DNA of 33,878 nucleotides from Candidatus Pacearchaeota archaeon (GCA_014728565.1 WJLK01000005.1:1-33878), one strand, 5' to 3'; numbered from the stretch's first letter, positions 3,927-19,673 are shown. Program-made: numbers and translations. The notes: generated from the letters alone by a model not told the origin.

Positions 3927-3944
3927 GGCACAAAAATCTTTTGA

Positions 3945-3967: not shown

Positions 3968-3968
3968 A

Positions 3969-5641: not shown

Positions 5642-5654
5642 TTTAAACCTTTTA

Positions 5655-6191
5655 TTAGGAAATTTCCTGATTTTTTGGTTCTCTTATTTTAACAAGACCT
5701 TCATTGAATAGTTTTATAATTCTCATTCTAACAACACCATCCTCGACAGGAACACAAAAAGGATTTGAAGATCTAGTTATAAACTCAATATCCAGGTGTT
5801 TTATCTCATACATCTCCATATTACATGCAGACCCTATTGGATAAAGAAAAAGATTAGACTCCATTCCTTCATAAACACTTAAATCCAGACCAATATTTTC
5901 ATAATCTCCTCTGAGACTTTTTGACAGATTTGCAAAACAGACAAACTCTACATTTGTTGGAAGAGTGCTTTTAAATTCATAATCATCACTCTGACTGTTC
6001 CAGGCTCTATCAATTGTCTCCTTAAAATCATCAGAAAAAAGACCTACTTTTGCACAATCTCTGGTTTTTAAAAAAGATCTCACTACCATAAAAGCTATAA
6101 CTAAAAAAAATATTATGAGTATTATTGAGAATATTGTTGAAAAAGATATACCAATACTACTGCCCTGTGCTTTTTTACCTCTTTTTATCAT
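5655..6191 (-). CDS. Prepilin-like protein, 178 aa
   Basis: MIKRGKKAQGSSIGISFSTIFSIILIIFFLVIAFMVV N-terminus. Confidence 0.5.
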   Translation of the reverse strand: MIKRGKKAQGSSIGISFSTIFSIILIIFFLVIAFMVVRSFLKTRDCAKVGLFSDDFKETIDRAWNSQSDDYEFKSTLPTNVEFVCFANLSKSLRGDYENIGLDLSVYEGMESNLFLYPIGSACNMEMYEIKHLDIEFITRSSNPFCVPVEDGVVRMRIIKLFNEGLVKIREPKNQEIS

Positions 6192-6237
6192 CTCATAACT
6201 AAAAAAACTTTATTAATAAATCTTATTGAACAAGAAT

Positions 6238-7146
6238 TTATTGAAGTGTGATAATCGGAGAATGTTTTTCAACAATTCTATAACCCTCTCTGATTATATC
6301 ATAATCAACCTTCCCCTGGCTAGTCTGAATGACTCTTCCTTTATGATCTCCAAACTTCATCCTAATATCAGGAGGTATTTTACCTTCATATCCTGCATCT
6401 TCTGGAATTTCTCCTATTTGAAATTCTAATCTTCCTGTTCTAGAATCTAAACCATAGTTAACAAACTGATCTCCAAGAACAGCAAAAAAAGGACCCTGAG
6501 TTTCAATTATAGCACCCTGGTCATATAATCTAAAAGGCTTAGGATTAGGTTTCCTTACATTAATTTTTCCAGGAGGTGAATTTTCTGCACCTGCTATAAT
6601 TGCAAGTGATTCTCCTCTCTGAATATCAACATATCTATTGCCTCTTAAAAATTCTACACTTCCTGTTTCTTTTCCTGCTGGAGCAGAAATTTCTACTCCT
6701 TGCTCTCCTAAAAAAACATAAGGTTCTGGAAAATCTCTTGGAGGAGTGTTAAAACTAACATAGGTTCTACCCTCTTTAGGGCCATTTATCTCAAGTTCTC
6801 TTATAAGAAGTTTCTGACCTGGAGAAAGGTAAGGTTGTTCATATTTTGGATCAACAGGCAATATCTCTCCATGAGGAAATCTAACATGTCTTGTTTCTTC
6901 TGCTTGCTCCTCTCTAATAGTTCTTATAGCCTCTCTTCTTGCTCCTCTTCCAGGAGGACCAGCCATGTCATCAGGACCTGAACCATCAACAGCAACAGGG
7001 ACTTTTCTTCCATTTACCCAGACATAAAAGACATCAGCTCTTGCTGAATTTTCATTTCCCAATACATCTCCTAATAAAATCCCAGCTAAACCTGCTGCAC
7101 TGGCTTTTAAAAAATTTCTTCTTGGAATTTTTTGTTTAGATTTCAT
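6238..7146 (-). CDS. Secreted protein with a twin-arginine (Tat) signal peptide; function unknown
   Basis: MKSKQKIPRRNFLKASAAGLAGILLG...ARA is a textbook S/T-R-R-x-F-L-K plus h-region plus AxA signal. I place the start at the ATG at 7146, not the track start at 7191. The protein has no Cys and is Gly/Pro/Arg/Glu-rich, unlike its neighbours. Confidence 0.6.
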   Translation of the reverse strand: MKSKQKIPRRNFLKASAAGLAGILLGDVLGNENSARADVFYVWVNGRKVPVAVDGSGPDDMAGPPGRGARREAIRTIREEQAEETRHVRFPHGEILPVDPKYEQPYLSPGQKLLIRELEINGPKEGRTYVSFNTPPRDFPEPYVFLGEQGVEISAPAGKETGSVEFLRGNRYVDIQRGESLAIIAGAENSPPGKINVRKPNPKPFRLYDQGAIIETQGPFFAVLGDQFVNYGLDSRTGRLEFQIGEIPEDAGYEGKIPPDIRMKFGDHKGRVIQTSQGKVDYDIIREGYRIVEKHSPIITLQ

Positions 7147-7224
7147 GTATTTTATAGGAAAAACAAGTTTATAAATCTTTTTATTTTTCATTACTACATA
7201 ATAGTAATATTTTTAAGATATAAA

Positions 7225-9345
7225 TTAGAATCCCAATACCTTTCTTGTCCAGGATTCTCCATAGGTTCTTTTTATAAATTCTTGTGTAGAAGGATAAAGA
7301 AGATTTTTAATTTTATTTTTTGCTCCTGCTTCTTCAATACCATAAAATCTCTGTTGCTGTTTTATATGAGCATCCATTGATCTTTCCGTACTATAGGCTA
7401 GAAAATTCCTGAATTTTTCTCCATCAGGACTATTCCAGTAATTTTTATCATAATGCTCAACAGCAGCTCCAACTGCAAGAGATGCAGCCATTGATTCTCC
7501 TAATAAAGCGCTCTCTCTTCTGTTAAGCTGATTAGAAACAATTGCACCATTTGTATAAGCAGTTAATTCATCAAAAATATAAAGAGGCTGATATTTCCAA
7601 TCACCATTTGCAGCCATATAAAAACTTTCTCCTGATAAATCATTATGAATGTATTTTTTAATATGATTAAAATTAATATTAGGTTCCTTTAAAATAACAG
7701 CCTTTCCATTCAATAAATAAAATCCATTGTATCCTCCTAAAACAGTATAAGCTCCTTCCTGTCTAACTGGGATTTTTGGAGCTATTTTATCTCTTATATA
7801 ACTATTAATACCATGAGTTGTTCCATGACCTAAATCTCCACTAGGACCGTCTTCATAAGGGTCAAATCTTCCATTGTTATGAGCTTTTAAATCCTCTAAA
7901 GCACTTTTATAAGATCCTTTATTTCCATAATCTGTAAATTCAACCTTGCTTTCATAAGAAATAACATAATTTCTTAGAACATTATTCATTTCAGTAATGG
8001 GTTTTGTAATAAGAGACAATGCTTTATTAGAATTTTGCTTATACATATCAAAAAACTTCTCTCGGTTTTCCTGGGTTAGTTTATAAAAAGAAACTCTATT
8101 GTATATTGCCTCTTCTTCTGTTTTTTTTGCAAAACCACCAATATCAGTTATATAATAATCCAAATCATGCTTCCATGTGTGAGTCTTTCCTGTTTTAGGG
8201 TCTGTGTAACTTGCTGTATATGCATTACCATCCTCATCCCTGCTTCTTATCTGAAAATTAATACTGTCTTTTCCCTGATTAGCAAACCTGCTGTGAATTC
8301 CAGTAGATGCTATCTGCACTGTTCCAGCTTTTAGATAACCCTCAACATACTCTGCAAACTGCTGACCTGTGTAAACAGTAAAAGGACCATCAGCACTAAC
8401 AAGATTAATTCTACCAGCTCTTTTCTCAATAGTGACAAAACTACTCTGTTCCATTTTATCACTACCAGCCTGAACCAGAAGAAAATCATTATCACTAATT
8501 TCAACACCTCTGGAATGTCCTGGAAGAAACCATAGGGAAGCTGACTCACCACCTTCAGGAGCACCAAAAGCTATCTTATCCTCATCATAAAAAACAATAA
8601 AAGCTTTTCCAAGTTCTTTAGCCTCACTTTTGCTTTTGTCAAACAAAAGATAGGTATCATAGTCATAAAACTCCTCTCCATCAGCTTTAGCAAGAGTTCC
8701 AATCTCTATTCTGTCAACAACTCCTTTTTTAACATAGAACTCACCTAACTTATTATCAAAATACAACCTGCTTTGAATATCATCAAGCTTCACACTCTCA
8801 AAAACATATTTTTCATCATCAATATTTATTGTTATTTCTTCTCCAACAAAAACAACTTCATCAAGGACATTTTCCTTATCTTCATCAAGTTGTTCAGGCC
8901 TTGAAATTTCTGCATCTTCAGGAATCTCTATTACTAGCTTGTTATCTTTTAGGATGATATGACTTCCTTCTGGAAGTTTGTACTTGTAATTTCCTAGTTT
9001 GTATTCTGTCTCTTCCTCTTCATCTCCTACAACAAAATCAGCTTCAATTAGATTTCCATCTTTAAATTTAAATTTAGAATCTTCTTTTAAATTATCAAAA
9101 ATCCTGTATTCATCCTGATTTTTCTCTCTGTATTTTAATGAACCTCCTTCATCAATAACCAAAGATTCTTCATCTGATTCTTTTACATTATCAGCAATAA
9201 GATACTCTCCACCATATTCTGAAAATCCATAAAGATGACTGTAATCATTTCCCTCAATTTCTTCTATCTCCTCTAAATCCTGAGCATAAACAAAACTAGA
9301 ATTAATTAGAATTACAATTAAAAAAAATAAACCTGCTTTTTTCAT
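7225..9345 (-). CDS. Secreted hypothetical protein, 706 aa, cysteine-free, acidic N-terminal half
   Basis: Sec-type signal MKKAGLFFLIVILINSSFVYAQD. I find no Cys in 706 aa. The C-terminal ~230 aa (GDLGHGTTHGINSY ... FDELTAYTNGA ...) looks globular, but I do not recognise it. Confidence 0.6.
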   Translation of the reverse strand: MKKAGLFFLIVILINSSFVYAQDLEEIEEIEGNDYSHLYGFSEYGGEYLIADNVKESDEESLVIDEGGSLKYREKNQDEYRIFDNLKEDSKFKFKDGNLIEADFVVGDEEEETEYKLGNYKYKLPEGSHIILKDNKLVIEIPEDAEISRPEQLDEDKENVLDEVVFVGEEITINIDDEKYVFESVKLDDIQSRLYFDNKLGEFYVKKGVVDRIEIGTLAKADGEEFYDYDTYLLFDKSKSEAKELGKAFIVFYDEDKIAFGAPEGGESASLWFLPGHSRGVEISDNDFLLVQAGSDKMEQSSFVTIEKRAGRINLVSADGPFTVYTGQQFAEYVEGYLKAGTVQIASTGIHSRFANQGKDSINFQIRSRDEDGNAYTASYTDPKTGKTHTWKHDLDYYITDIGGFAKKTEEEAIYNRVSFYKLTQENREKFFDMYKQNSNKALSLITKPITEMNNVLRNYVISYESKVEFTDYGNKGSYKSALEDLKAHNNGRFDPYEDGPSGDLGHGTTHGINSYIRDKIAPKIPVRQEGAYTVLGGYNGFYLLNGKAVILKEPNINFNHIKKYIHNDLSGESFYMAANGDWKYQPLYIFDELTAYTNGAIVSNQLNRRESALLGESMAASLAVGAAVEHYDKNYWNSPDGEKFRNFLAYSTERSMDAHIKQQQRFYGIEEAGAKNKIKNLLYPSTQEFIKRTYGESWTRKVLGF

Positions 9346-10082
9346 AGTGTTTTGGGTTTATATTTATTTGCAAAATTAAAACTAAACTCTTCACTAACTG
9401 ACTTTGGATTTTCATCTATAAAGACAAATATTGCTGTTTCATAATCAGGATAAAGGACATTTACTTTGAAATTATTATCTTCTGCAATTCCATAAAGACA
9501 GGTAATACAGATTCCCTCATGAGTCATCTGCTCTCCGATAAAAACTTCAACTGCATTATAAACAACACCTAATCTTAAGGGAACATCTGTCTGAAATCCT
9601 TTAAAAAAATAAGATTTTTTATCTTTAGTAACACTTATTGGATATTCTACATCAAAAGCAACAGTTTCATCGTAAATAGAAACCTCACTTTTTACCTCCC
9701 CGGGATTTATTTCAAAACCAGAAAAACTTTCAAAATTCATGCACTCTTTTAGTTTATCATTAAAATATCTAGATATCTCTGATCCAATTTTTTCTTTACT
9801 AGGCATATAGTTTTCTTTGTTATAAAAATAATAAGGAAAGTTATCCTGAACAGAAGGTTCAGGAATTTTATAATATCCTCCTCTGTTACTGGTGTATAAC
9901 ACAGCCTCTTTTGCTTTTTCTTCAACACAACTTTCTACAAAAGAATGAACAGGTTCTACTTCAGGATTTATTCTTTCAATATTCAAGTCATTTAATTCAA
10001 GAAAAACAAAACCTCCAACAACTGCAACTACTAAGATTCCTATTATAACAAATACAGTTATCTGACCTCTTTTTTCTTTCAT
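9342..10082 (-). CDS. Prepilin-like protein, family P2 (paralog of 4886-5641), 246 aa
   Basis: Canonical class III motif KRGQITVFVIIGILVVAVVGG. 4-nt overlap with the downstream 706-aa gene. Confidence 0.65.
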   Translation of the reverse strand: MKEKRGQITVFVIIGILVVAVVGGFVFLELNDLNIERINPEVEPVHSFVESCVEEKAKEAVLYTSNRGGYYKIPEPSVQDNFPYYFYNKENYMPSKEKIGSEISRYFNDKLKECMNFESFSGFEINPGEVKSEVSIYDETVAFDVEYPISVTKDKKSYFFKGFQTDVPLRLGVVYNAVEVFIGEQMTHEGICITCLYGIAEDNNFKVNVLYPDYETAIFVFIDENPKSVSEEFSFNFANKYKPKTL

Positions 10083-10210: not shown

Positions 10211-10255
10211 TCTTAGTTAATACCTCTAAAATACAGAGAGTTCATTTTCTAGTTT

Positions 10256-12478
10256 TTAAATCTCAACTCCCCAATCCCATCCATCTTCCCGGTCATCAGT
10301 TGAAATTTCAACAGGTCTTATAATCATTGAACATGAATTAGGATTAGGTTGATTCTCATATTTATCTTTACATCTTATGTAATAATTTTTATTTACCTCC
10401 CAATTGGTTGTATGAATTTCTTCATCCAGTGTGTACATGCTAATACCATCATCAATTTCAAAATTACAGTCAGTATTACTATAACTACAATCTCCTTTTT
10501 CATTGAGTATTAGTTTTAATTCTCCTGCTTCTTTGTAGATCCTTGTTATAATAGGAGGCTGCCTGTCAATTCTTACTGAAAAACTAGTTGAATTATAATC
10601 TGCATTTCCACCTAAGTCAACACACTTGAAAAAATAAGTATAATTCCCTCTTGGCAAATCCTGCCTCTGCTTGTGTTTATTTGAGTTTGTCTCTAGGAAA
10701 AGCACATAATCTTCTTCTCTTGAAGGAGGACTGTTATACCTGTCATTATAATAATAACACCTTGCTTCTCCATTTTTATATCCATTATCAGTTATTATTT
10801 CTAGGAAAACAGCAACAACTCTTGTTGAATCAGCCATCTCTCCAGAAGGTTTTGTATCTATTATATTCAGTGGCTGAGTTCCAATAACAACATACTCATA
10901 ACTCTGGACATTGGTGTTTCTGTCACCCTCTTTAGCCCATGGCTGGTCTTTGCATTTAATATAATAACTATTCTCCTGTCTGTCTTTAATTCCTGTCAAA
11001 GTTGTCTTGCATGTATAAACATTCCTGTTGTTCATCTCCCAAACCTCTGTATCACACTGCATCTCACCTTCCATCAAGTCATAGGATTTATCCTCTCTGC
11101 TCCACTTACAATTAGAAGGCTCATTTACATAAACCTCCAAATCTAACTCACTCTGGTTATATTGAACAGGACTATCACTTGGAATATTGAAGTCAACTAT
11201 TACAGGAGGAGTTGTATCAGGACCTTTTTCAACACAGAAACTAACTGAATACGCATCCTGGTTATAATTTCCATTTCCATCTATACATCTTATGAATAAA
11301 GTATACTCTCCATCATTCTTTAATTCAGGATTAGATGCATTCATTGCAGAAGCTCCTGGAAGCGATAGTTTTTCTGTGTGGTTGTAGATAAAAAATGTAT
11401 TTCCACCAACATAGTATTCCATACTCTCATAATCTGTTTTTAATTTATAATCTATCTTACATTGTGCTGGTTCATTTGTTGTAAATGTAAATTCCAGTGG
11501 AAAAAAAGCCTTTATGCACTCCATGTTTTTTGGTTTAATGTAAACTCCTGTCGAAGGAGGTCTTGTGCTGGTATAAGGTTTGAATATATGGTCCTCACTA
11601 ACCTCTCTAAAAGTAATGATAGGGGATTTGACATCATGAGGATTAATCCATGCACATTTCTGATTTTCAGTTCCTTCATTAATTATCTCACAAGCCTGTC
11701 CCAGGCTTTTACAACTATACTCAGAACATTCTTCAAGGCTATTACATAATTCACAGTCCTCTCCTCCAATTGTAGCCTGCCACGGCAGACAGTAAAATTC
11801 AGTTATTTCAATTGATTTTTTTCTATAGGTTAGAATAAAAATAAGAGCTGCAATTCCAATACCTACTAGAGATGCCATAGGTTCTCCAACAACAGGTTCT
11901 AGTAATCCAGAAACTATTCCTCCGACTGCTCCTGCAACAGCCCCCCATTTAGCTCCTTCCTCTCCTCCAAGTGCTCCTCCAAGTGAACCAAAGATTCCCA
12001 TACTGACACTTACTTTAGTTAACATAGAAGCCATATTTAGTTTGCTGATGTCCCCCCAGACATCACCTCCACCTCCACCTCCAGGAGGAGGGGGAGTAAC
12101 ACCATCATCTCCACCGCCTGTATCACCACCTGTATCACCACCTGTATCACCACCTGTGTCACCTCCGCTACTGTCATCACCACCTACTATAATAGTATCA
12201 TCTCCTGTGCTGGTTCCTCCAGGACCGCTTGTTGGTATAACTCCTGTTCCAGGAGGAATTATAGGTCCTCCTATTTTTGTGATTCCTCCAGCAGTTGTGG
12301 TTGTTGAAGTAGTTCCTGTTACAGCTGGAGGAGTTGTAGTTATTCCTTTAGTTTCAGTAGAAGTTCCTGTTCCTCCTGGATTAACACTATCACTTATTGG
12401 AGCACTCACCAAAAAACTAAATGCTGCAACTGAGATTAAAAGATTTATAATTAATGCAAATGCTTTTATTTTATTCAT
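10256..12478 (-). CDS. Large surface protein, module D: signal peptide, Thr/Gly/Pro linker, hydrophobic helix pair, Cys-knot, four Ig-like repeats
   Basis: I place the start at ATG 12478 (MNKIKAFALIINLLISVAAFSFLVSA). The track start at 12547 would overlap the upstream gene. The protein is homologous to the C-terminal half of the 1173-aa ORF. Confidence 0.7.
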   Translation of the reverse strand: MNKIKAFALIINLLISVAAFSFLVSAPISDSVNPGGTGTSTETKGITTTPPAVTGTTSTTTTAGGITKIGGPIIPPGTGVIPTSGPGGTSTGDDTIIVGGDDSSGGDTGGDTGGDTGGDTGGGDDGVTPPPPGGGGGGDVWGDISKLNMASMLTKVSVSMGIFGSLGGALGGEEGAKWGAVAGAVGGIVSGLLEPVVGEPMASLVGIGIAALIFILTYRKKSIEITEFYCLPWQATIGGEDCELCNSLEECSEYSCKSLGQACEIINEGTENQKCAWINPHDVKSPIITFREVSEDHIFKPYTSTRPPSTGVYIKPKNMECIKAFFPLEFTFTTNEPAQCKIDYKLKTDYESMEYYVGGNTFFIYNHTEKLSLPGASAMNASNPELKNDGEYTLFIRCIDGNGNYNQDAYSVSFCVEKGPDTTPPVIVDFNIPSDSPVQYNQSELDLEVYVNEPSNCKWSREDKSYDLMEGEMQCDTEVWEMNNRNVYTCKTTLTGIKDRQENSYYIKCKDQPWAKEGDRNTNVQSYEYVVIGTQPLNIIDTKPSGEMADSTRVVAVFLEIITDNGYKNGEARCYYYNDRYNSPPSREEDYVLFLETNSNKHKQRQDLPRGNYTYFFKCVDLGGNADYNSTSFSVRIDRQPPIITRIYKEAGELKLILNEKGDCSYSNTDCNFEIDDGISMYTLDEEIHTTNWEVNKNYYIRCKDKYENQPNPNSCSMIIRPVEISTDDREDGWDWGVEI
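12121..12168. repeat. 12-bp tandem repeat tatcaccacctg x3 plus one degenerate copy, encoding (GGDT)n on the minus strand
   Basis: Perfect units at 12121-12132, 12133-12144 and 12145-12156; a degenerate unit at 12157-12168. Confidence 0.9.
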
Positions 12479-12506
12479 ATTTTGTTTTTGATTTATTCTC
12501 ATTCTA

Positions 12507-14252
12507 TTATTCAAATTCCTCCCACTCAACATCTTCCTCTTCCTCATCTTCTTCAGAAGGTTCCTCTCCTAATCTTTTTTTGCCATTATCTTTTACATAT
12601 ACTCCCTTGTCAGTATATCTTCCTATAAAATTGACATGATTACCACAGTCTCCAAGACTAATGCACAGCTTGTTCATATTATTCACCCAATTTTGTTCTA
12701 ACACTTCACAATTTTCAACACAGCTCTTTGAACCAAAAATATCCTCTTCAAAAATAACCACCTGTTTTGAATTTCCTAAACTGCATATTGATTTTGCTTT
12801 TCCCTCACTGTTCCAGAATTCAAATCCAGGAGGAACATTTGGCAAACATATTCCACCTCCTGCTAGAATACCCTCTGAATTTTCTTTTACATATCTAGCG
12901 TAATCTTCTTCTTTATTAAAAACATCATCAAAAAACTCATCATCACCTTCATCACTACTTTCTCCAATTTTTCCCTCTCCAGCAGCTTCATAATGAGCTC
13001 CTGTCATCCAGTAGCAATCTCTTAAATCTTTATTTTCACAATCATACCTCTCTATCTGGTCAATACAATCTGACCATCTGTTGACTCTGCATGCAGCTTC
13101 CTGGAAATTTCCATAAGCACTTCCAAATTCTTCTGAGATACAAACTTCATTTCTAAAATCAGCACAAGGCTCTATTGTTTCCTCACCATGTACACAGACA
13201 TGCCTGAAATGTCTGCTTCCCACAGGATCTGCTCCATTTCCAGTTTCTCCCTGATAAACACACCAGGATTCTCCGTTTCTGTAGTCATTGCCATTTTCAG
13301 TATTATGGCAATTAATATCATGACATATATGGTCACCATAAGCAGCCTCTCCTTCCTTGCAGATACTTCCTAATAGATATTCACAATTTCCACATGTTTT
13401 TGAGTTTGTATTAGGTTTCCCATATCCACAACTTTCCTGTTTCTGAACTATTTTTTGCCAGTAAGAGGGATCTTTACTGTAGATTTTATTTGCATCATAT
13501 ATATTAGCAGGATTTCCACAACTATCCTTAAAATAAACTTCAAATTTTCCTTCAACACAAATTGTCTCTTTAGTAGGTCCACAATTTGTAGCTAGATCAT
13601 CTGCTGAGCATAAATAATTCTTGAAAAATTCTGTTTCTGAGGTTTGATTTTCACTTTTTTCTTTTGTGGACTCTAGACATTCTCCTCTTGTCATAATTTT
13701 ACAGGTTCTTTCACCGTCAACCTCATAAACACAAGCTCCTCTATCCTGTCTATAAGCCAGCATAATACAGCTTTTTTCATTAAGAATATCATTTCTGAAG
13801 TTAGTTTCTAGACCGTAGATATTAGAGAGTCTTTTGCATCTTGTTAATGTAACAAAACTAGCCTGGTCTCCAATAAGACAGCATCCTAGATTACATTGAG
13901 GAACAATGCATTGAGAATCATCAACCCAGGTTCCCTTGTTTTCTTCACATACTCTTAAAGGAGTGTTCTCCATACATAAACCTTCTTCAGTATCAATGCA
14001 ACAACCTAATTTGCAGAAACTTGTTGCTTCACAACTAGTAGGTGTTTTTCTGTAAGGTTTTCCTGTTTCAGGATCAACTGAATTAAGACAGTTCTCTTCG
14101 AGAGTATTCTGGCACCAGGCACCATTTTCTGTTTTTTCACAACATACATTATACTCAGGAGTTTCGTCCTGAGCAAAAATAAAGGTAATTAAAAATAAAC
14201 TTGCTACTAGGAATAATAAAATCTTACTTGCCTTTATCTTATTTTTATTCAT
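12507..14252 (-). CDS. Secreted cysteine-rich protein, module C, 581 aa
   Basis: Signal peptide MNKNKIKASKILLFLVASLFLITFIFAQD. I count about 43 Cys. It is homologous to the N-terminal half of the 1173-aa ORF (RNGESWC, DPVGSRH, IEPCADFRNEVC, SLGDCG). The C-terminus is an acidic tail, EEPSEEDEEEEDVEWEEFE. Confidence 0.75.
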   Translation of the reverse strand: MNKNKIKASKILLFLVASLFLITFIFAQDETPEYNVCCEKTENGAWCQNTLEENCLNSVDPETGKPYRKTPTSCEATSFCKLGCCIDTEEGLCMENTPLRVCEENKGTWVDDSQCIVPQCNLGCCLIGDQASFVTLTRCKRLSNIYGLETNFRNDILNEKSCIMLAYRQDRGACVYEVDGERTCKIMTRGECLESTKEKSENQTSETEFFKNYLCSADDLATNCGPTKETICVEGKFEVYFKDSCGNPANIYDANKIYSKDPSYWQKIVQKQESCGYGKPNTNSKTCGNCEYLLGSICKEGEAAYGDHICHDINCHNTENGNDYRNGESWCVYQGETGNGADPVGSRHFRHVCVHGEETIEPCADFRNEVCISEEFGSAYGNFQEAACRVNRWSDCIDQIERYDCENKDLRDCYWMTGAHYEAAGEGKIGESSDEGDDEFFDDVFNKEEDYARYVKENSEGILAGGGICLPNVPPGFEFWNSEGKAKSICSLGNSKQVVIFEEDIFGSKSCVENCEVLEQNWVNNMNKLCISLGDCGNHVNFIGRYTDKGVYVKDNGKKRLGEEPSEEDEEEEDVEWEEFE

Positions 14253-14268
14253 TTTGAGTTTTGGTTTT
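14239..14268. repeat. Copy A of a perfect 30-bp direct repeat ttatttttattcattttgagttttggtttt
   Basis: Identical to 14291-14320. Covers the start codon and first codons (MNKNK) of the 581-aa gene. Confidence 0.9.
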
Positions 14269-14271
14269 GAT

Positions 14272-14293
14272 TAAACTTGTTTTAAAAAGTTTA
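14272..14293 (-). promoter_or_regulatory. Palindromic leader motif, copy 3 (taaacttgttttaaaaagttta)
   Basis: 7-bp arms TAAACTT/AAGTTTA with an 8-nt spacer, between the 270-aa gene stop and the 581-aa gene start. About 39/43 identical to 19391-19433. Confidence 0.4.
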
Positions 14294-14320
14294 TTTTTAT
14301 TCATTTTGAGTTTTGGTTTT
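14291..14320. repeat. Copy B of the perfect 30-bp direct repeat
   Basis: Covers the last codons and the stop (VKNQNSK*) of the 270-aa gene. Confidence 0.9.
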
Positions 14321-15113
14321 TTACAGGATTTCTTATCTCTACTAATCCTGGAGGAAATGCAACACTTCTTGTTGAAAACATGAATTTCTCATCTGTCTTT
14401 CTATCAGTTAATATATAAACTTTTGTTCCGTCACTTTTTGTTTTTTTCTCAACCTTTAGATTTGGGAAATTCATCATGTAATCCATGGTTTCACTATCTC
14501 CGTATCTAGCCTCCCAATTTAGTATAGAGCTTGTTATCATTGTGAACTCGTATAATTTTGAATCAACAGCTGTTCTAATTGATTTATAAGTCTCTCTGTT
14601 ATTTTTTTCTATGCTTAAATCAAGTTCTAGACTTATTAAAACAGTTTCAGGTATTATTTCTATATCTAATTCAGGTTCTTTCATTGAAACTGTATAACCA
14701 TCTTTTTCAAGAGCATCTTTCATAGAGTAGATGCAGTTTTTAATAATTGGATTCATATAGTTCTCTAACTCTCTTTCAACACTCTGCTTTAACAGTGGTT
14801 TTTGCATTACACATCTTTTGTAATTTTCCTCGGTGTAACATAGATATTCAACTCTGTTTCCCTGATACATATAGTAAAGTTCAGGGTCTATACTACCTCC
14901 CTGAACTTCAAGTATATTAATCCCCTCTTCTGAAGATTTTAAAAGGCAGTTTTCAATTTCATTCAAAGGAGGTTTTCCAACAAAAATATTTGTTATATTC
15001 TCTCTCTGAAGATAAATTAATAAAATTATCACAACTAAAATCAGTATACTTATAATTACAAATACAGTGACTTGAGATTTTTTACTCATGTTTTCCTTCT
15101 TTTTTATACTCAT
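14301..15113 (-). CDS. Prepilin-like protein, family P1 (paralog of 18640-19500), 270 aa
   Basis: The N-terminus is MSKKSQVTVFVIISILILVV; the internal ATG at 15089 would give a canonical short signal. It shares GG, LCY....YK.C...PLL, E.ENY..P and the terminal PPGL with the 286-aa protein. Confidence 0.65.
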   Translation of the reverse strand: MSIKKKENMSKKSQVTVFVIISILILVVIILLIYLQRENITNIFVGKPPLNEIENCLLKSSEEGINILEVQGGSIDPELYYMYQGNRVEYLCYTEENYKRCVMQKPLLKQSVERELENYMNPIIKNCIYSMKDALEKDGYTVSMKEPELDIEIIPETVLISLELDLSIEKNNRETYKSIRTAVDSKLYEFTMITSSILNWEARYGDSETMDYMMNFPNLKVEKKTKSDGTKVYILTDRKTDEKFMFSTRSVAFPPGLVEIRNPVKNQNSK

Positions 15114-15140
15114 CTTTTAAGCTAATTTTGTTTATAAATT

Positions 15141-18100
15141 TTAGTAGAGAGGGTCATATGCCCTGATTGTTTTTTTCGAACCTTTGTTACCAAATTCATC
15201 CTCACACTGTATGTAGTATGTTCTTGTAACCCACTTAGCAGTGTGCTCTAGACCATCTGTCGTATACATCTCACTTGCATTATCAAACTTAAATGCTCTG
15301 TGAAAACCATATCTGCAGACTGATTCTTCCTCTGTCCTTATCATTAAACCTCCGTTATAATACATTCTACTAATCCCAGGACTTCCTGTATCAATTTTAA
15401 CACTAAATACACTTGAGGCTTTGGCTGTATTCCCTGCATCATCTTCACAAGTGAAAGTTAGATTGTACCTTCCTCTTGTTGCGCTTGTTATTTCATAGGA
15501 ATGAAATACATCATAGGTCTCTGTAAACATATCAGAATAACCATTTCCACTCCATCTACATGTTGCTACACCTCCCTGAGCTCCTCCTTCTGTTTTTAAT
15601 CTTAGGGTGACAGTAGTAGGTTCAACACCTGCAATAACCTCTTCACCATTGCCAGGTTTAACTTCAACTATTTTTAATTTATTTTTTGATGTTGACAATG
15701 TATAAACATAACTTTCTTGCATTGTGTTTTTATTTTCAGATATATCCTGGCATCTAAGATAAAATGTACTGTGATTGGTTATCCCTGTCAGAGTTGTATT
15801 ACATGGAAGTCCATAAGGAGTGTAATCTGCAGGGTCGTGTGAACAATCCATCTTATTTGTCATTTTTTCATATGCCTCATCTTCTAGTGACCATCTGCAA
15901 TTAGAAGGCTCATTAACATAAACTATTGCAGGAGTTTCTGTTACACCATACGGTATAAAAGCTTTGTTTAAAGGATCTGTAAGAATTATTCTTGGAGGAG
16001 TTAAATCAGGACCTCTTTTAACACAAGTTTCTATTACATAGTTTCCAGGATTGACAATTCCATCAGCAGTCCTGCATTTTACATAAAATTTTGTCTCTCC
16101 TAACTCATCTAATTCTGCCTCTGTCAAATTATAAGGATCTTTAAAGGCTTCTGGAGCAGGATAAAAATACATCATCCTGTGGGCAGGAAGTAAACTACTT
16201 CCCTTAACTCCGAAATAATCATTCATATTTTCGTATCTATCTGCAGGGTTGGTGCTATATTTGCATTTTGCAAATGGGTCAACTTTAATTCCAAATTTTA
16301 CAGGTGTATAAGCATCAATACAACCCTTATTTTTATCATCCACTATTTTAAATCCACTTCCAGTGACTTCATAGTAACTATAGTTTTCTGATATATAGCT
16401 ATAAAGAGGCATTATTTCAGGAGCTTTATTATTTTTAGGACGACTAACACACATCTCATTTCCAGTTCCTTTATTAATGTAGTTACATTTCTGGCCTAAA
16501 CTCTGACATCTATATTCTGTACAAGGAACCTCAAGATCTTCATTACACCTAATGCAGTCATCACCTCCAACAGGAGGTTCCCATGGATAACACGAGAAAT
16601 CAATATTTACTTTTACAATCCATCTTATTGCAAATATAAATGCGAGCATAGCTGCTACTAAGGATAGCATTATGCTTTCAGTTATTAGATAGATAAGCAT
16701 TCCTGCTATCATTGCTGCTAGATATTCAAAATGTTTGTTGGTTATCTCTTTATAAACTATTTGGGAACTTATGCTTGACATTGTTGTTGCAATTCCATTT
16801 GTGTACATAGAGAAATCAATAGGGCTTGCAGCTATTTCTCCCTGAGCCAATCCAGGTATATCCTCCTCATTAGGATCCTCATCCATTATTTTAAGTAATA
16901 GAGGAGAACCATATGCTCCTGATACCTGCAATAATTCTCTTTCAAAGGCACTTAAATTACCCTGAGGATCATATTCTCCTTCTGTTACCTCTTGAAGACT
17001 ACCTGGATTTAAAGTTTCAAAAAATTCAAAATTACCTGGTTCAGCAGGTTTCTGGTCTGGTGGAGCTGTTGCATATTTTGAAAATTCATTTAACTGAGTC
17101 TGTGTTAGTCTTGGAGGACCATTTGTTAAGTCAGGCTTAGAAGATTTTACTCCGTAACCTCCGTCAGTAGGAACACCTATGTAATTGATATAAGCACCAC
17201 AATCTCCCAGACTGACACAAAAATCATTCATCTCTCTGGTGAACTTTTCAGTATGGCAATCACAATTCTCCTTACATGAACATCCAAATATGCCGCAAAC
17301 CCATATCTCTGTGCATCGCATACTTGCAATACTGCAGACTTTTTCTGCAGAATTCATTACTTCCATTCCTTCTACAAGATTATACTCTCCTATTAGGTTG
17401 AATCCAGGAGGATACTCAGGAAGACATACTTTGAAGTGAAAACCTCCTCCCATCTCAATTTCCTTAAGCCAACAGTCAGGATGTTTTTCACATAAACTTT
17501 CAATTCTTTCAACACCCTCGGTATCTCCTTTTGAATTCAGAGCAAGACAAGCTCTCCAACCATTAACTCTGCATGCAGCTTGAGAAACTGTCTGTCCGCA
17601 GGTTAGTGTGGTATCCTGCTGTACACATATTTCATTTCTATAATCTGCACAAGGTTCTATTCTTTCAGTTCCCATATAACATATGTGTTTTACATGTCTG
17701 CTTCCAACAGGATCTTTTCCATCTCCAATTTTACCATCATATTCACACCATGATTCTCCATTTCTTCTTACTACTCCGTCAACCTCACAGTTAATGTTCT
17801 GACAGTTGTATTCCCCATCCTTTTTTCCACAATAGGTTCCCTGGAAAAAATTACAGTCTATAGCAACTCCTTCAGGATTATCACATGAATCAAACCAGTA
17901 AACATCCTCCTCATTCTCTAAACATCCTTTATGATCATGAGGCTTGCATGTTGTATTTAGTTCAGGATTAGAACAATAGTAACCTTTGAAAAAATGTTCA
18001 TTAAAATCACTTTTAGTTCTTGATGCACACTCCTCTGCTGTTATATACAGGCATTTTTTTTCACCTTCCTCTGTCTCATAGGTACATGCACCCATGTCCT

Positions 18101-18638
18101 CTTTTGAGACAGAGAGTAGGCATTCAATCTCAGTATTGTGAGCTTCATCTCTTCTCCATTCTGTTGGAACATCTTCGTTTTCAGTATTTCCAAGCCACTC
18201 ACAATTTTTTTCAGTTGTCCAGACTGCCTCATCTCCCATGATACAGCAACCTTTTTCACATTCTTTTATATTGCAGAATTGATCTTCCTTGAAGGTTCCT
18301 CCTAAATTTTCACAATTTCTGAAAGAAGACCTTACATTACATATTCCAGTCTCATCACTAATACAACACCCCATTCTGCAAAATTCTGTCAGTTCACAAA
18401 GAGTAGGTGCTATATCAAAATCCTGATTGCATTGCCATGCAGGAACATACTGGCATCTGCTTCCATTCTGAGTCTCTTCACAACAAACCTCTCCCATTGC
18501 TCCCTGCTGAGCATCAACACTCTCTATGTTTTTTGTTCCTTCATAGACAATATATGAAAAAGCAAAACTGCTTATAATCAAGATCATTATCTGTAGATAA
18601 CCGATGTTTGCTTTTTTGTTAATCATTTTTTTTATCAT
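15141..18638 (-). CDS. Giant cysteine-rich surface protein, fused modules C+D (~1165 aa)
   Basis: The track start at 18662 is a GTG overlapping the upstream gene. ATG at 18638 or 18626 (MINKKANIGYLQIMILIISSFAFSYIV) is more plausible. N-half resembles the 581-aa protein; a central hydrophobic pair follows (YLAAMIAGMLIYLI, MLSLVAAMLAFIFAI); C-half resembles 10256-12478. Confidence 0.75.
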   Translation of the reverse strand: MIKKMINKKANIGYLQIMILIISSFAFSYIVYEGTKNIESVDAQQGAMGEVCCEETQNGSRCQYVPAWQCNQDFDIAPTLCELTEFCRMGCCISDETGICNVRSSFRNCENLGGTFKEDQFCNIKECEKGCCIMGDEAVWTTEKNCEWLGNTENEDVPTEWRRDEAHNTEIECLLSVSKEDMGACTYETEEGEKKCLYITAEECASRTKSDFNEHFFKGYYCSNPELNTTCKPHDHKGCLENEEDVYWFDSCDNPEGVAIDCNFFQGTYCGKKDGEYNCQNINCEVDGVVRRNGESWCEYDGKIGDGKDPVGSRHVKHICYMGTERIEPCADYRNEICVQQDTTLTCGQTVSQAACRVNGWRACLALNSKGDTEGVERIESLCEKHPDCWLKEIEMGGGFHFKVCLPEYPPGFNLIGEYNLVEGMEVMNSAEKVCSIASMRCTEIWVCGIFGCSCKENCDCHTEKFTREMNDFCVSLGDCGAYINYIGVPTDGGYGVKSSKPDLTNGPPRLTQTQLNEFSKYATAPPDQKPAEPGNFEFFETLNPGSLQEVTEGEYDPQGNLSAFERELLQVSGAYGSPLLLKIMDEDPNEEDIPGLAQGEIAASPIDFSMYTNGIATTMSSISSQIVYKEITNKHFEYLAAMIAGMLIYLITESIMLSLVAAMLAFIFAIRWIVKVNIDFSCYPWEPPVGGDDCIRCNEDLEVPCTEYRCQSLGQKCNYINKGTGNEMCVSRPKNNKAPEIMPLYSYISENYSYYEVTGSGFKIVDDKNKGCIDAYTPVKFGIKVDPFAKCKYSTNPADRYENMNDYFGVKGSSLLPAHRMMYFYPAPEAFKDPYNLTEAELDELGETKFYVKCRTADGIVNPGNYVIETCVKRGPDLTPPRIILTDPLNKAFIPYGVTETPAIVYVNEPSNCRWSLEDEAYEKMTNKMDCSHDPADYTPYGLPCNTTLTGITNHSTFYLRCQDISENKNTMQESYVYTLSTSKNKLKIVEVKPGNGEEVIAGVEPTTVTLRLKTEGGAQGGVATCRWSGNGYSDMFTETYDVFHSYEITSATRGRYNLTFTCEDDAGNTAKASSVFSVKIDTGSPGISRMYYNGGLMIRTEEESVCRYGFHRAFKFDNASEMYTTDGLEHTAKWVTRTYYIQCEDEFGNKGSKKTIRAYDPLY

Positions 18639-18639
18639 T

Positions 18640-19500
18640 TTAAAGTCCTGGAGGTAATACACAGCTTCTTACAGCAAATGTGAATTTTTGACCACTCGCC
18701 CTTTCCTCAATAGTATAGAGAGTGTTTGAATCTCCAGTAATGAACCTCTTAATATCAAATTCATTATGAAGAACCATGTATCCAACAGCATTAAAATCAC
18801 AATATTTAGCTTCCTGGTTGACAATTTCCATTGCTATTTCAGCGAGATTATACATAGGATGAACAAGATTCATAGTAAATTTCTCAAACTCTTTTTTATC
18901 CTCTTCATTTTTCATACTGAAATATTTATCAATTTCAACTGAAACATGCCTTGATTGGATTCTTGCATTTATCTTTAAGTCATCTGGATTTTCAATTTCA
19001 TATTTTTGCTCTAGATTTTTCTGAAGTGCCTGAAAACATTCATATACCTTAGGATAGATATAATTTTCAATTTCTTTCTGTATATGCTCTATTAGTAAAG
19101 GTCTCTGATTTATACACTTTTTATATAATTGAGAATTATAGCATAGAAACGTTCTATCTATTCCCTTATAAAGAACACTTCCTCTTGGATGTATATCTCC
19201 ACCATGTTCAGATATAATTTCTATTGCCTCTTCTGTAGCATCTCTTGTGCATGATTCAATATAAGCCTGAGGATTTTCTTCATCATATGCCTCTGTTTCT
19301 GCAGGCCTTAAAAGCAAAAGGAATATTAAAATTAGAACTATTAGCATTAAACCAAGAACTACAAATATTGTTACCTGAGATTTTTTATTTATTTTAAGTT
19401 CTGGTTTTGATAAAACTTGTTTTAAAAAGTTTTCACTCTTTCCAGATTCTGGTTTTGATAAAACTTGTTTTAAAAAGTTTTCACTTATTTTATCATCCAT
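18640..19500 (-). CDS. Prepilin-like protein, family P1, with an unusual 36-codon repeat-containing N-terminal extension (286 aa)
   Basis: The class III motif INKKSQVTIFVVLGLMLIVL begins at residue 37. Upstream lies MDDKI(SENFLKQVLSKPE)SGK(SENFLKQVLSKPE)LK. ATG at 19500 overlaps the wHTH gene by 16 nt. Confidence 0.6.
   Translation of the reverse strand: MDDKISENFLKQVLSKPESGKSENFLKQVLSKPELKINKKSQVTIFVVLGLMLIVLILIFLLLLRPAETEAYDEENPQAYIESCTRDATEEAIEIISEHGGDIHPRGSVLYKGIDRTFLCYNSQLYKKCINQRPLLIEHIQKEIENYIYPKVYECFQALQKNLEQKYEIENPDDLKINARIQSRHVSVEIDKYFSMKNEEDKKEFEKFTMNLVHPMYNLAEIAMEIVNQEAKYCDFNAVGYMVLHNEFDIKRFITGDSNTLYTIEERASGQKFTFAVRSCVLPPGL
19399..19437. repeat. Copy 1 of a perfect 39-bp repeat (period 48 bp) containing the palindromic leader motif
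   Basis: ttctggttttgataaaacttgttttaaaaagttttcact, identical to 19447-19485. Palindromic core aaaacttgttttaaaaagtttt at 19412-19433. Confidence 0.9.
19447..19485. repeat. Copy 2 of the perfect 39-bp repeat
   Basis: Identical to 19399-19437. Palindromic core at 19460-19481. Abuts the stop codon of the wHTH gene (19485-19487). Confidence 0.9.
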
Positions 19501-19673
19501 AGATTTACCCCCTCTTTTTTTATTCTGATAATTTTTTCATCAAGTGCAAGCTCCATAAGATAGCTCTGGGCAGTGTTCCAGCTAACTCCTAGAGTCTTGG
19601 CTAATTCAGAACTAGTTATCACCCTCTTTTCCCCAAGATATTTTAATATCTTACTTATTAACTCTTTATTCAT
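19485..19673 (-). CDS. Small winged-helix-turn-helix DNA-binding protein (62 aa), first gene of the island
   Basis: ITSSELAKTLGVSWNTAQSYLMELALDEKIIRIKKEGVNLWMI has the helix-turn-helix plus beta-wing pattern of ArsR/TrmB/MarR-like wHTH domains. It overlaps the next gene. Confidence 0.6.
   Translation of the reverse strand: MNKELISKILKYLGEKRVITSSELAKTLGVSWNTAQSYLMELALDEKIIRIKKEGVNLWMIK

What the first reader, a model, noticed from the sequence alone, without database searches (positions are those of the whole stretch)
10256..18638. Duplicated module with a gene fusion/fission: one ~1165-aa gene equals the next two large genes (581 aa + ~741 aa)
The 1173-aa ORF aligns by eye along its whole length with the two large genes downstream. 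Its N-half matches the 581-aa protein (RNGESWC, DPVGSRH, IEPCAD[FY]RNE[IV]C, AACRVN.W, CLP..PPGF, C[IV]SLGDCG). Its C-half matches 10256-12478 (C.PW....GG[ED]DC..CN, C[ST]EY.C[KQ]SLGQ.C, GPD.TPP, VYVNEPSNC[KR]WS, TTLTGI). The break falls in the linker just before a pair of hydrophobic helices. In the split version the first half ends in an acidic tail (EEPSEEDEEEEDVEWEEFE*), and the second half has its own signal peptide plus a Thr/Gly/Pro linker. Each version is preceded by a paralogous prepilin-like gene (286 aa and 270 aa). This Rosetta-stone arrangement argues that modules C and D act as one complex. If the two helices form a membrane hairpin, both halves would face outward.
Basis: seen in the sequence. 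Interest (0 to 1): 0.75.

Follow-up and report, generated by a model that had tools for sequence, protein, structure and literature searches.

The report
Duplicated archaeal surface-protein module, one copy split
A Pacearchaeota (DPANN archaeon) operon carries two ancient copies of a large, uncharacterised cysteine-rich envelope protein, one as a single gene and one as two genes; the split is real and conserved in many species, and it marks a very large protein family with no known function.

Summary
The 1173-aa ORF (15141-18662, minus strand) matches the 581-aa protein over its N-half (E 5e-77, 32% identity). It matches the 763-aa ORF over its C-half (E 2e-67, 32% identity). The two preceding pilin-like genes are paralogues (E 6e-37).

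The split is not an artefact:
- The gene ends in a double stop and the two genes are in different frames.
- The N and C genes are separate in 54 of 69 scorable species-level genomes, sometimes with other genes inserted between them.

The window is a Candidatus Pacearchaeota contig. Module 1 (fused) and module 2 form two clades (bootstrap 0.95), so the duplication is old. Fused orthologues of module 2 exist in at least four genomes.

The split is not a simple break. The ancestral N-terminal helix (K-A-x-I-S-Y-L-E-I…FAFSY) now heads the C-half, and the N-half has a new Sec signal.

Predicted structure:
- The N-half is a confident model (pLDDT 86.5) with no match in PDB or BFVD.
- The C-half is a cysteine knot followed by four to five Ig-like domains.
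- No Pfam or NCBIfam family covers either half.

The operon also holds eight proteins with prepilin-like N-termini. Function is inferred only: a membrane-anchored surface assembly, probably for cell contact. The acidic tail is not conserved.

The parts
19485..19673 (-). 62-aa winged-helix ORF at the head of the operon; a possible regulator
   Evidence: ORF listing. Small RHH or FaeA-like ORFs occupy the same position in L001 and L002. Not tested further.
18640..19500 (-). Pilin-like gene A (286 aa), the partner of module 1. Its N-terminus is KKS|QVTIFVV followed by a hydrophobic helix.
   Evidence: Paralogue of the 270-aa gene, E 6e-37. The [KR][GAS]Q motif plus a hydrophobic stretch is present in 40 of 47 orthologues. 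No Pfam pilin family was hit.
15141..18662 (-). Module 1: fused large envelope protein. The mechanical ORF is 1173 aa; the likely start is the ATG at 18638, giving 1165 aa.
   Evidence: BLASTP to both halves of module 2. 811 homologues, the best 120 mostly full length. AlphaFold2 pLDDT 85.6, pTM 0.69.
18528..18614 (-). Module 1 N-terminal helix (residues 17-45), KKANIGYLQIMILIISSFAFSYIV. This is the ancestral signal-anchor or class-III-like helix.
   Evidence: The motif K-A-x-I-S-Y-L-[EQ]-I is found in 69 of 120 close homologues, and the strict FAFS[YF]-type motif in 72 of 120. Predicted helix 7-45.
17103..18494 (-). Module 1 cysteine-rich N domain (residues 57-520, 46 Cys)
   Evidence: Aligns with the 581-aa protein. 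27 Cys are conserved in at least 90% of sequences. Beta-rich, pLDDT about 85-97.
16737..17102 (-). Module 1 linker (residues 521-642): no cysteines, partly low confidence, ending in an amphipathic helix at 617-634
   Evidence: AlphaFold2 pLDDT below 50 at 550-560 and 595-619. No Cys in this region.
16629..16736 (-). Module 1 hydrophobic helical hairpin (residues 643-678), the putative membrane anchor
   Evidence: Hydropathy segment 647-687. Predicted helices 643-658 and 664-678. The pattern LIAMIA..YVITQS.. is conserved in homologues.
15144..16628 (-). Module 1 C region (residues 679-1173): a cysteine knot (C.PW..GG.DC..CN..C.EY.C.SLGQ.C) followed by four to five Ig-like beta-sandwich domains
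   Evidence: Aligns with the 763-aa ORF. The top Foldseek PDB hits are tandem Ig, FN3 or cadherin ectodomains and adhesins, E down to 1.8e-12. Weak Big_13 match. All 19 Cys are at least 90% conserved.
14301..15113 (-). Pilin-like gene B (270 aa), the partner of module 2; N-terminus KKS|QVTVFVI
   Evidence: Paralogue of the 286-aa gene. The motif is present in 61 of 64 orthologues. Synteny is conserved.
12507..14252 (-). Module 2 N-half (581 aa): classical Sec signal peptide, cysteine-rich domain (43 Cys), and an acidic tail specific to this lineage
   Evidence: BLASTP. 1451 homologues, the best 120 being 542-667 aa. AlphaFold2 pLDDT 86.5. No Foldseek hit with E of 1e-3 or lower in PDB or BFVD. 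Double stop codon. Identical to NCBI protein GF386_00185.
10256..12502 (-). Module 2 C-half (748 aa from the ATG at 12502; the mechanical ORF of 763 aa runs to 12547)
   Evidence: BLASTP. Homologues are mostly 650-850 aa and adjacent to N-half genes.
12392..12475 (-). Module 2 C-half N-terminal helix (KAFALIINLLISVAAFSFLVS), homologous to the N-terminal helix of the fused proteins
   Evidence: A K.YF.I.NL...AFS-type motif occurs in 82 of 120 C-half homologues. A FAFS-type motif occurs in 59 of 120 (loose pattern), against 2 of 120 N-halves.
12053..12391 (-). Thr/Gly/Pro/Asp-rich linker of the C-half
   Evidence: Read directly from the translation.
11822..12040 (-). Glycine-zipper hydrophobic segments plus the last hydrophobic helix of the C-half; aligns with the module 1 hairpin
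   Evidence: The BLASTP alignment covers this region. Hydropathy. Conserved pattern in homologues.
10259..11821 (-). Cysteine knot plus Ig-like domains of the C-half
   Evidence: Weak Big_13, Y_Y_Y and DUF4625 matches. PF19077 is precomputed for many homologues.
9342..10082 (-). Pilin-like gene C (246 aa, KRG|QITVFVI), from the same family as genes A and B
   Evidence: 47% identical to the 251-aa gene and weakly similar to the 270-aa gene. The motif is present in 22 of 24 orthologues.
7225..9345 (-). 706-aa secreted protein with no cysteines (module 3 cargo)
   Evidence: Signal-like N-terminus and 0 Cys. No Pfam match. Weakly conserved at the same position in other genomes.
6238..7191 (-). 317-aa protein with a TAT-like signal and no cysteines
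   Evidence: Pfam TAT_signal at 21.7 bits, just below the cutoff. Weak similarity to the 706-aa protein.
5655..6191 (-). Small pilin-like protein 1 (178 aa)
   Evidence: The motif is present in 24 of 25 orthologues. The order 178-306-346-185 is fixed in other genomes.
4886..5641 (-). Pilin-like gene D (251 aa), paralogue of the 246-aa gene
   Evidence: 47% identity, E 6e-79.
3969..4889 (-). Small pilin-like protein 2 (306 aa, KKA|IGMSF)
   Evidence: The motif is present in 19 of 25 orthologues, commonly as K[GA]|F-E-M-S-F. A profile search found no PDB relative.
2783..3823 (-). Small pilin-like protein 3 (346 aa, KKA|QIKIQEMAF)
   Evidence: The motif is present in 22 of 25 orthologues.
2224..2781 (-). 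Small pilin-like protein 4 (185 aa, YA|QHEIAGFV); last gene of the operon
   Evidence: The motif is present in 22 of 23 orthologues.

Best explanation
Shown: The window comes from a Candidatus Pacearchaeota genome. It carries a 13-gene minus-strand operon (2224-19500) built from repeated modules, each a pilin-like gene followed by one or more large exported proteins.

Modules 1 and 2 are ancient paralogues of one bipartite envelope protein. Its parts, in order, are:
- an N-terminal basic stretch and helix (K-A-x-I-S-Y-L-E-I...FAFSY);
- a beta-rich domain of about 480 aa with roughly 27-36 conserved cysteines and no known structural relative;
- a linker of about 120 aa without cysteines;
- a small-residue helical hairpin;
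- a seven-cysteine knot;
- four to five Ig-like domains, each with two or four conserved cysteines.

In module 2 of this genome, and of most relatives, this protein is encoded by two genes. The N domain has gained an ordinary cleavable Sec signal. The ancestral N-terminal helix now heads the C-half gene. Fused module 2 genes survive in some lineages. A fused and a split form are sister taxa with full bootstrap support, and that split has a different break point. The state has therefore changed more than once.

Inferred:
- The split most likely arose by tandem duplication followed by complementary loss. One copy lost its 3' half. The other lost the N domain by an in-frame deletion.
- Both halves lie outside the cell. 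The C-half is a membrane-anchored stalk of Ig-like domains. The N domain is a disulfide-braced head, tethered covalently in module 1 and held non-covalently in module 2.
- Together with the eight proteins bearing class-III (prepilin)-like N-termini, they form a surface assembly of these small, probably host-dependent archaea. Its most likely use is cell-cell or cell-surface contact.
For: - Similarity of the halves.
- Source organism: (100% match to GF386_00185 of Candidatus Pacearchaeota, on a contig of 33878 nt).
- The split is real and conserved: (54 split, 4 fused, 11 N-only, 14 unscorable out of 83 module 2 genes, from 82 loci that include two repeat copies of the L002 contig).
- Other genes are inserted between N and C in some genomes.
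- Fused module 2 orthologues: (L032: 1385 aa, 51% identical to the 581-aa protein and 53% to the 763-aa ORF).
- Transfer of the helix to the C-half.
- Two clades and a repeated change of state: module 2 monophyly 0.95; L040 fused and L041 split are sisters at 1.00; the L041 N-half keeps a linker element.
- Partial tandem duplications occur in this locus: (two C-halves in L002; three modules in L036 and L071).
- Structure: pLDDT 85.6 and 86.5; Ig-like strings; N domain has no match.
- No family or PDB sequence match.
- Cysteine pattern.
- Prepilin-like motifs are conserved in all eight families.
- Family size: 5690 clusters at 50% identity.
- Not viral.
Against: - No experiment or expression data exist, and the function is inferred from architecture only.
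- The pilin-like label rests on a short N-terminal motif. No Pfam pilin family and no PDB pilin was hit.
- No prepilin peptidase, assembly ATPase or platform gene lies in or beside the operon. The flanks are housekeeping genes.
- Topology was not computed with a dedicated predictor. The residues after the last hydrophobic helix include Lys/Arg, which does not exclude a cytoplasmic C-half.
- Some genomes keep the N-half without an adjacent C-half, so the two halves need not form an obligate pair.
- Contact between the halves could not be read from the model, because no coordinates or error map were available.
- High sequence conservation, especially of module 2, is unusual for adhesins.
- The neighbour-joining tree is poorly supported at deep nodes, so the number and direction of state changes is uncertain.
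Confidence: 0.6

Rival explanations
1. The split is a sequencing or assembly frameshift, or a recent pseudogenisation, of a second fused gene.
For: A few related loci do look like this. In L054 the N gene ends in nonsense sequence and the next ORF begins inside the N domain. In L048, module 1 is broken inside the N domain at a different point.
Against: In the window, the N gene ends with two stop codons and the next gene is in another frame with its own basic N-terminus and helix. The same two-gene arrangement is found in 54 species-level genomes. Hundreds of metagenomic homologues have the same lengths. Unrelated genes are sometimes inserted between the halves. Both halves are more conserved than the fused paralogue.
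Confidence: 0.02
2. The two modules are the main envelope coat (an S-layer-like lattice) of Pacearchaeota, not a contact device. The C-half would be a membrane-anchored stalk and the N-half a canopy, as in two-component S-layers. The pilin-like proteins would be separate or auxiliary.
For: The locus is present throughout the group: 523 confirmed stretches in species-representative genomes. Synteny beside housekeeping genes is strict. Sequence conservation is high. The architecture is a secreted partner plus an anchored partner made of Ig-like domains.
Against: No S-layer protein appears among the top 50 structural matches. No S-layer family was found in Pfam or NCBIfam. S-layer proteins usually evolve quickly. 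Nothing is known about abundance.
Confidence: 0.2
3. After the split the N-half and C-half work independently. The N-half would be a secreted factor and the C-half a separate anchored protein, so the adjacency reflects only history.
For: Three genomes have the N-half followed directly by the small pilin-like genes and no C-half. Eight more have no C-half within several kb. The N-half has a cleavable signal and no anchor. The C-terminal tail of the N-half is variable.
Against: The N-then-C order is kept in 54 genomes. Both halves evolve at similar, slow rates. Fused orthologues persist. The N-halves that lack a C-half have shorter tails, which hints that the tail matters when a C-half is present.
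Confidence: 0.15
4. The C-half is cytoplasmic. The protein spans the membrane with its head outside and its Ig-like tail inside, acting as a transmembrane link rather than a purely external structure.
For: The hydrophobic region could hold one or three crossings rather than two. Lys/Arg residues follow the last helix (YKK, RKK). The first motif after the membrane has CxxC...Cx4C spacing, which can bind zinc.
Against: Every Ig-like domain has two or four cysteines conserved in at least 90% of sequences, which is typical of extracellular disulfides. The structural neighbours are ectodomains and adhesins. Acidic residues outnumber basic ones after the helix in module 2. AlphaFold2 predicts a two-helix hairpin.
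Confidence: 0.1

Closest known systems
Rosetta-stone gene fusion/fission pairs, and fission by duplication with complementary degeneration
   Same: One long protein equals two separate adjacent proteins. Fused and split orthologues coexist among related genomes. Partial tandem duplicates are seen in the same locus.
   Different: In this window the fused and split versions are paralogues in one operon. The split moved the ancestral N-terminal helix to the C-half and gave the N-half a new signal. Both products have to be exported.
Type IV filament systems with minor pilins and a large non-pilin adhesin (bacterial PilY1 with PilVWX/FimU; archaeal TFF 'system 1' loci, which are rich in pilins and accessory proteins, bioRxiv 10.64898/2026.04.22.720090)
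   Same: Several small proteins have a basic N-terminus, a [KR][GAS]|Q/F site and a hydrophobic helix. They are encoded next to large exported proteins, and a fixed set of four small ones ends the operon.
   Different: The locus has no ATPase, platform protein or prepilin peptidase. No pilin family was matched. The large proteins have their own membrane segments and share no fold with PilY1.
Sulfolobales two-component S-layer (SlaA canopy and SlaB membrane stalk); comparison from my own knowledge
   Same: An unanchored secreted partner is paired with a membrane-anchored partner rich in beta-sandwich domains.
   Different: There is no sequence or structural match. The anchor here is an internal hairpin plus an N-terminal helix, not a C-terminal helix. 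A covalently fused paralogue sits in the same operon.
Bacterial Ig-like domain adhesins (Pfam Big_13, PF19077; RTX adhesins; the Aureispira GhpA grappling hook)
   Same: The C-half is a string of Ig-like domains joined by G-P-D-x-T-P-P linkers. Foldseek E values reach 1e-9 to 1e-12.
   Different: Window proteins score below the Pfam cutoff (22 bits against 27). The domains carry conserved cysteine pairs. They are joined to a cysteine knot, a membrane hairpin and an unrelated head domain.
Very large surface proteins of other DPANN archaea (for example the SPEARE proteins of Nanohaloarchaeum antarcticus, PMC6642349)
   Same: They are large exported proteins of host-dependent small archaea and are proposed to mediate contact.
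   Different: No homology was tested or seen. The proteins here are far smaller, cysteine-rich, strongly conserved and organised in modules with pilin-like genes.

Membership tests
Fusion/fission (Rosetta-stone) pair | The long protein aligns significantly and collinearly with two separate proteins | tested here: met
   E 5e-77 (N-half) and E 2e-67 (C-half), over non-overlapping regions in the same order.
Fusion/fission (Rosetta-stone) pair | The separate genes are genuine, not a frameshift artefact | tested here: met
   Double stop, different frames and separate N-terminal signals. The two-gene state occurs in 54 genomes. Other genes are inserted between the halves in some genomes.
Fusion/fission (Rosetta-stone) pair | Orthologous (not only paralogous) fused and split forms exist | tested here: met
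   L032, L039, L040 and L051 encode single ORFs of 1198-1385 aa whose halves are 44-53% identical to the split proteins but about 30% identical to module 1. L040 and L041 are sisters at bootstrap 1.00.
Fusion/fission (Rosetta-stone) pair | The split products interact physically or functionally | not testable with these tools
Genomes with only the N-half argue against an obligate pairing.
Archaeal type IV pilins / class III signal peptide proteins | Short basic N-terminus, a [KR][GAS] cleavage site, then a hydrophobic helix of about 20 residues | tested here: met
   The motif is found in 19-61 orthologues per family, 76-96% of those scored, for seven of the eight families. The 251-aa type had only one assigned orthologue.
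Archaeal type IV pilins / class III signal peptide proteins | Match to a curated pilin family (for example Pfam Class_IIIsignal or archaeal pilin N-terminal families) | tested here: not met
   No such family was hit, even at E up to 10 on the N-terminal 60 residues. Profile searches found no PDB pilin.
Archaeal type IV pilins / class III signal peptide proteins | Assembly ATPase, platform protein and prepilin peptidase encoded with the pilins | tested here: not met
   None lies in the window or in the flanks of related loci, which encode housekeeping genes. The rest of the genome could not be examined.
Archaeal type IV pilins / class III signal peptide proteins | Processing by a prepilin peptidase and assembly into a filament | not testable with these tools
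   Requires experiments.
Bacterial Ig-like domain, Big_13 (PF19077) | Score above the Pfam gathering threshold | tested here: inconclusive
   Window proteins score 22.0 and 22.3 bits against a cutoff of 27. PF19077 is precomputed for many C-half homologues. Foldseek confirms tandem Ig-like folds.
Two-component archaeal S-layer | Sequence or structural similarity to known S-layer proteins | tested here: not met
   No S-layer family in Pfam or NCBIfam. None among the top 50 PDB fold matches.
Two-component archaeal S-layer | High abundance and lattice formation | not testable with these tools
   Needs proteomics or electron microscopy.

The most novel reading that the evidence does not exclude
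The operon encodes a so far undescribed envelope machine that defines Pacearchaeota-like DPANN archaea. It would be a type-IV-filament-related or bindosome-like assembly. Its giant cysteine-knotted proteins, which themselves start with a K-A|x-I-S-Y-L-E-I helix resembling a class III signal, would be subunits alongside eight pilin-like proteins. The orphan-fold N domain would be the working head that engages the host cell. The repeated fusion and fission of module 2 would then record how a tethered head became a detachable one.
Probability: 0.25. Interest if true: 0.85.

Novelty: new variant of a known kind. Interest (0 to 1): 0.62.

Why it matters
Pacearchaeota are abundant and uncultivated, and how they attach to or feed on other cells is unknown.

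- This locus is present across the group: 523 confirmed stretches in species-representative genomes, and 5690 protein clusters at 50% identity.
- Its position in the genome is strictly conserved.
- It has no curated family, and its head domain has no structural relative.

That makes it a well-defined candidate for the cell-contact apparatus. The split module predicts which polypeptides should bind each other. It is also a clear case of how an exported multi-domain protein can be divided into two genes without losing export of either part: the old N-terminal helix is reassigned and a new signal peptide is gained.

Tried and rejected
- Pfam and NCBIfam scans of all operon proteins gave nothing above cutoff.
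- A scan of the N-terminal 60 residues alone, at E up to 10, found no pilin family.
- PDB sequence-profile searches found nothing for the large proteins and nothing significant for two pilin-like families.
- Foldseek with the full fused model was dominated by generic Ig-like strings. Foldseek with the N-half alone found nothing significant in PDB (best E 0.18) or in viral models (best E 0.37).
- P0355 (1177 aa) looked like a fused module 2 protein but is a C-half with a long unrelated N-terminal extension.
- The acidic tail as a docking element was rejected because it is not conserved.
- Viral or mobile origin was rejected. No relatives were found in IMG/VR, and the flanks are housekeeping genes.
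- The bacterial-type promoter and terminator scan was uninformative for an archaeon.
- Four literature searches found no description of this family.
- The representative-library search returned only long fused forms in its top 150, so it added family size but no distant architectures.

Full report
**1. What the window is**

The 33.9-kb window has about 32% G+C. It encodes archaeal housekeeping genes: PCNA, a primase, Hjc, PAC2 and a class II aminoacyl-tRNA synthetase. The 581-aa protein is identical to NCBI protein GF386_00185 of a Candidatus Pacearchaeota archaeon, on a contig of exactly 33878 nt. The finding lies in a minus-strand gene string from 19500 to 2224.

**2.

- The 1173-aa ORF (15141-18662) aligns over residues 17-519 with the 581-aa protein (E 5e-77, 32% identity).
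- It aligns over residues 648-1160 with residues 208-733 of the 763-aa ORF (E 2e-67, 32% identity).
- The 286-aa and 270-aa genes that precede the two versions are paralogues (E 6e-37).
- The junction reads GAA TAA TAG, followed by an ATG at 12502 or 12478 in another frame.

**3. The split is real and old**

- Searching with the fused protein returns 811 homologues. The best 120 are mostly full length (1060-1308 aa; five gave split local alignments) and 38-53% identical.
- Searching with the 581-aa protein returns 1451 homologues. The best 120 are all 542-667 aa.
- Searching with the C-half returns proteins mostly of 650-850 aa.
- The three kinds share contigs and consecutive locus tags.
- Two long contigs show the same order: PCNA, small DNA-binding ORF, pilin-like, fused, pilin-like, N, C, pilin-like, and so on.

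A scan of species-representative genomes gave 523 confirmed stretches, of which 80 loci were kept. I called ORFs in all 83 held loci and compared them with the window proteins. L003 and L005 are further copies of the contig seen in L002. The states of the 83 module 2 genes were:

| State of module 2 | Genes |
|---|---|
| Split (N gene, then C gene) | 54 |
| Fused | 4 |
| N-half only | 11 |
| Not scorable (contig end) | 14 |

In some split loci, unrelated small genes lie between N and C. These include lipoprotein-like ORFs and HEPN/nucleotidyltransferase pairs. A frameshift artefact is therefore excluded for this window. L054 and L048 do look like broken genes, but at other positions.

**4. Paralogy, orthology and direction**

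- A neighbour-joining tree of the N domain separates module 1 (all 19 sampled sequences) from module 2. Bootstrap support for module 2 monophyly is 0.95. The window therefore shows two ancient paralogues, not a fused/split pair of one gene.
- True fused orthologues of module 2 exist in L032 (1385 aa), L039, L040 and L051. Their halves are 44-53% identical to the split proteins and about 30% identical to module 1.
- The N-termini are the decisive detail. Fused proteins of both modules begin with a basic stretch and a helix of the form K-A-x-I-S-Y-L-[EQ]-I...FAFS[YF]. This motif is present in 69-72 of 120 close module 1 homologues. Split N-halves begin instead with an ordinary Sec signal that ends just before the CCEKT motif. 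Split C-halves begin with the ancestral-type helix (K.YF.I.NL...AFS, 82 of 120).
- Because both paralogues share the architecture helix, N domain, linker, C region, the fused state is most simply ancestral.
- The split cannot be a plain break. A tandem duplication followed by complementary loss fits. Partial tandem duplicates are seen in this locus: two C-halves in L002, and three modules in L036 and L071.
- L040 (fused) and L041 (split) are sisters at bootstrap 1.00. The L041 N-half retains a hydrophobic linker element that other N-halves lack. So at least two independent changes of state occurred. Deep nodes are weakly supported, and the total number of changes is open.

**5. Anatomy**

AlphaFold2 models, each built with an alignment, are confident: the fused protein has pLDDT 85.6 and pTM 0.69, and the 581-aa N-half has pLDDT 86.5 and pTM 0.70.

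- N domain: beta-rich, beginning with four beta-hairpin-plus-helix units that carry GCC motifs. 27 cysteines are at least 90% conserved across both modules, and 36 are invariant in the N-half alignment. Foldseek finds no match with E of 1e-3 or lower in PDB or BFVD.
- Linker: no cysteines, and partly disordered.
- Hairpin: two short helices (643-658 and 664-678) joined by a polar turn. This region aligns with the last glycine-zipper segment and the final hydrophobic helix of the C-half.
- C region: a seven-cysteine knot followed by beta-sandwich domains with 4, 4, 2 and 2 conserved cysteines. Its best structural neighbours are tandem Ig, FN3 or cadherin ectodomains and bacterial adhesins.
- No Pfam, NCBIfam or PDB sequence family covers either half.
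- The family is large: 5690 clusters at 50% identity at E of 1e-3 or lower, and 2126 at 1e-30. It is absent from IMG/VR.

**6. Context**

- Eight operon proteins begin with a basic stretch, a [KR][GAS] site followed by Q, F or I, and a long hydrophobic run. The motif is conserved in 76-96% of scored orthologues for seven of the eight families; the 251-aa type had only one assigned orthologue.
- Four of them (286, 270, 246 and 251 aa) belong to one family.
- The other four (178, 306, 346 and 185 aa) end the operon in a fixed order in more than 20 genomes.
- This resembles class III signal peptides of archaeal type IV filament systems. A recent preprint reports that 'system 1' loci of methanogens and DPANN archaea are rich in pilins and accessory proteins (bioRxiv 10.64898/2026.04.22.720090).
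- Against that reading, no pilin family or PDB pilin was matched. No ATPase, platform protein or peptidase lies nearby, and the flanks encode FttA, Rad50/Mre11 and a GTPase.

**7. How it most likely works (inference)**

- Both halves are extracellular. Both are exported, and each Ig-like domain has conserved cysteine pairs.
- The C-half forms a membrane-anchored stalk and the N domain a disulfide-braced head.
- In module 1 the head is tethered covalently. In module 2 it is secreted and would have to dock non-covalently on its C-half, on module 1 or on the pilin-like partner.
- Module 2 is more conserved than module 1 in 32 of 32 genomes for the N-half and 31 of 32 for the C-half. Median identities to the window proteins are 49% and 50%, against 37% for module 1.
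- Genomes with only the N-half exist, and their N-halves have shorter tails. The pairing may therefore not be obligate.
- The acidic tail in this genome is not a conserved feature.

**8. Verdict**

The function is unknown and is proposed here only as a surface contact or envelope assembly. The fusion/fission phenomenon is a known kind of event. The system it occurs in is uncharacterised, large and specific to one lineage, and its head domain has no structural relative.

Noticed in passing
window 19485-19673 (-): A 62-aa winged-helix ORF sits directly upstream of, and slightly overlaps, the first pilin-like gene. Small RHH or FaeA-like ORFs occupy the same position in L001 and L002. It may regulate the operon.
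   Followed up: partly
window 19396-19482 (-), residues 7-35 of the 286-aa ORF: The ORF has a direct peptide repeat, SENFLKQVLSKPE, twice, ahead of the KKSQ site. The true start may be further downstream.
   Followed up: no
window 2224-10082 (-): Two further modules follow. The first is the 246-aa pilin-like gene with cysteine-free 706-aa and 317-aa proteins; the 317-aa protein has a TAT-like signal. The second is the 251-aa pilin-like gene, 47% identical to the 246-aa one. The operon ends with the set 178-306-346-185 aa. The number of 246/706-type modules varies between genomes.
   Followed up: partly
window 169-969 (+): A 266-aa P-loop protein with a basic, hydrophobic N-terminus and a Zot-type ATPase match (22.9 bits, cutoff 20.3) is encoded divergently from MetK. 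Any link to the operon is unknown.
   Followed up: no
window 986-2161 (-): The S-adenosylmethionine synthetase is the three-domain type (PF00438, PF02772, PF02773), which I know as the bacterial/eukaryotic form. The archaeal form (PF01941) matches only weakly.
   Followed up: no
window 20841-22388 (+): The 515-aa primase carries a small-subunit domain plus zinc ribbons. Its 531-aa counterpart in L002 also has a weak large-subunit match, which suggests a fused PriS-PriL.
   Followed up: no
window 22434-24266 and 24326-25597 (+): A 610-aa cysteine-rich protein (28 Cys) and a 423-aa protein, both with a signal peptide and a C-terminal anchor, keep their positions next to the primase in L001 and L002.
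   Followed up: partly
L072 10766-12160; L066 11801-13130; L057 12123-12983: Unrelated genes are inserted between the N-half and C-half genes. L072 has two pairs of small ORFs that look like nucleotidyltransferase/HEPN toxin-antitoxin pairs (by eye, not searched). L066 and L057 have lipoprotein-like ORFs.
   Followed up: partly
L002 16128-20427 (same contig as L005): Two tandem C-half genes (704 and 698 aa) follow a single N-half. A nearby 619-aa protein has a thioredoxin domain, which is of interest given the many cysteines in these proteins.
   Followed up: no
N-half homologues P0121-P0240: About a fifth of N-half homologues end in a short aromatic-acidic motif (…GFFG[DE]LF[DG]). The window's …VEWEEFE may be a variant. 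It could be a docking peptide.
   Followed up: partly
L036 and L071: These genomes carry a third module (an extra pilin-like gene plus a fused gene of about 1040-1060 aa) between modules 1 and 2.
   Followed up: no
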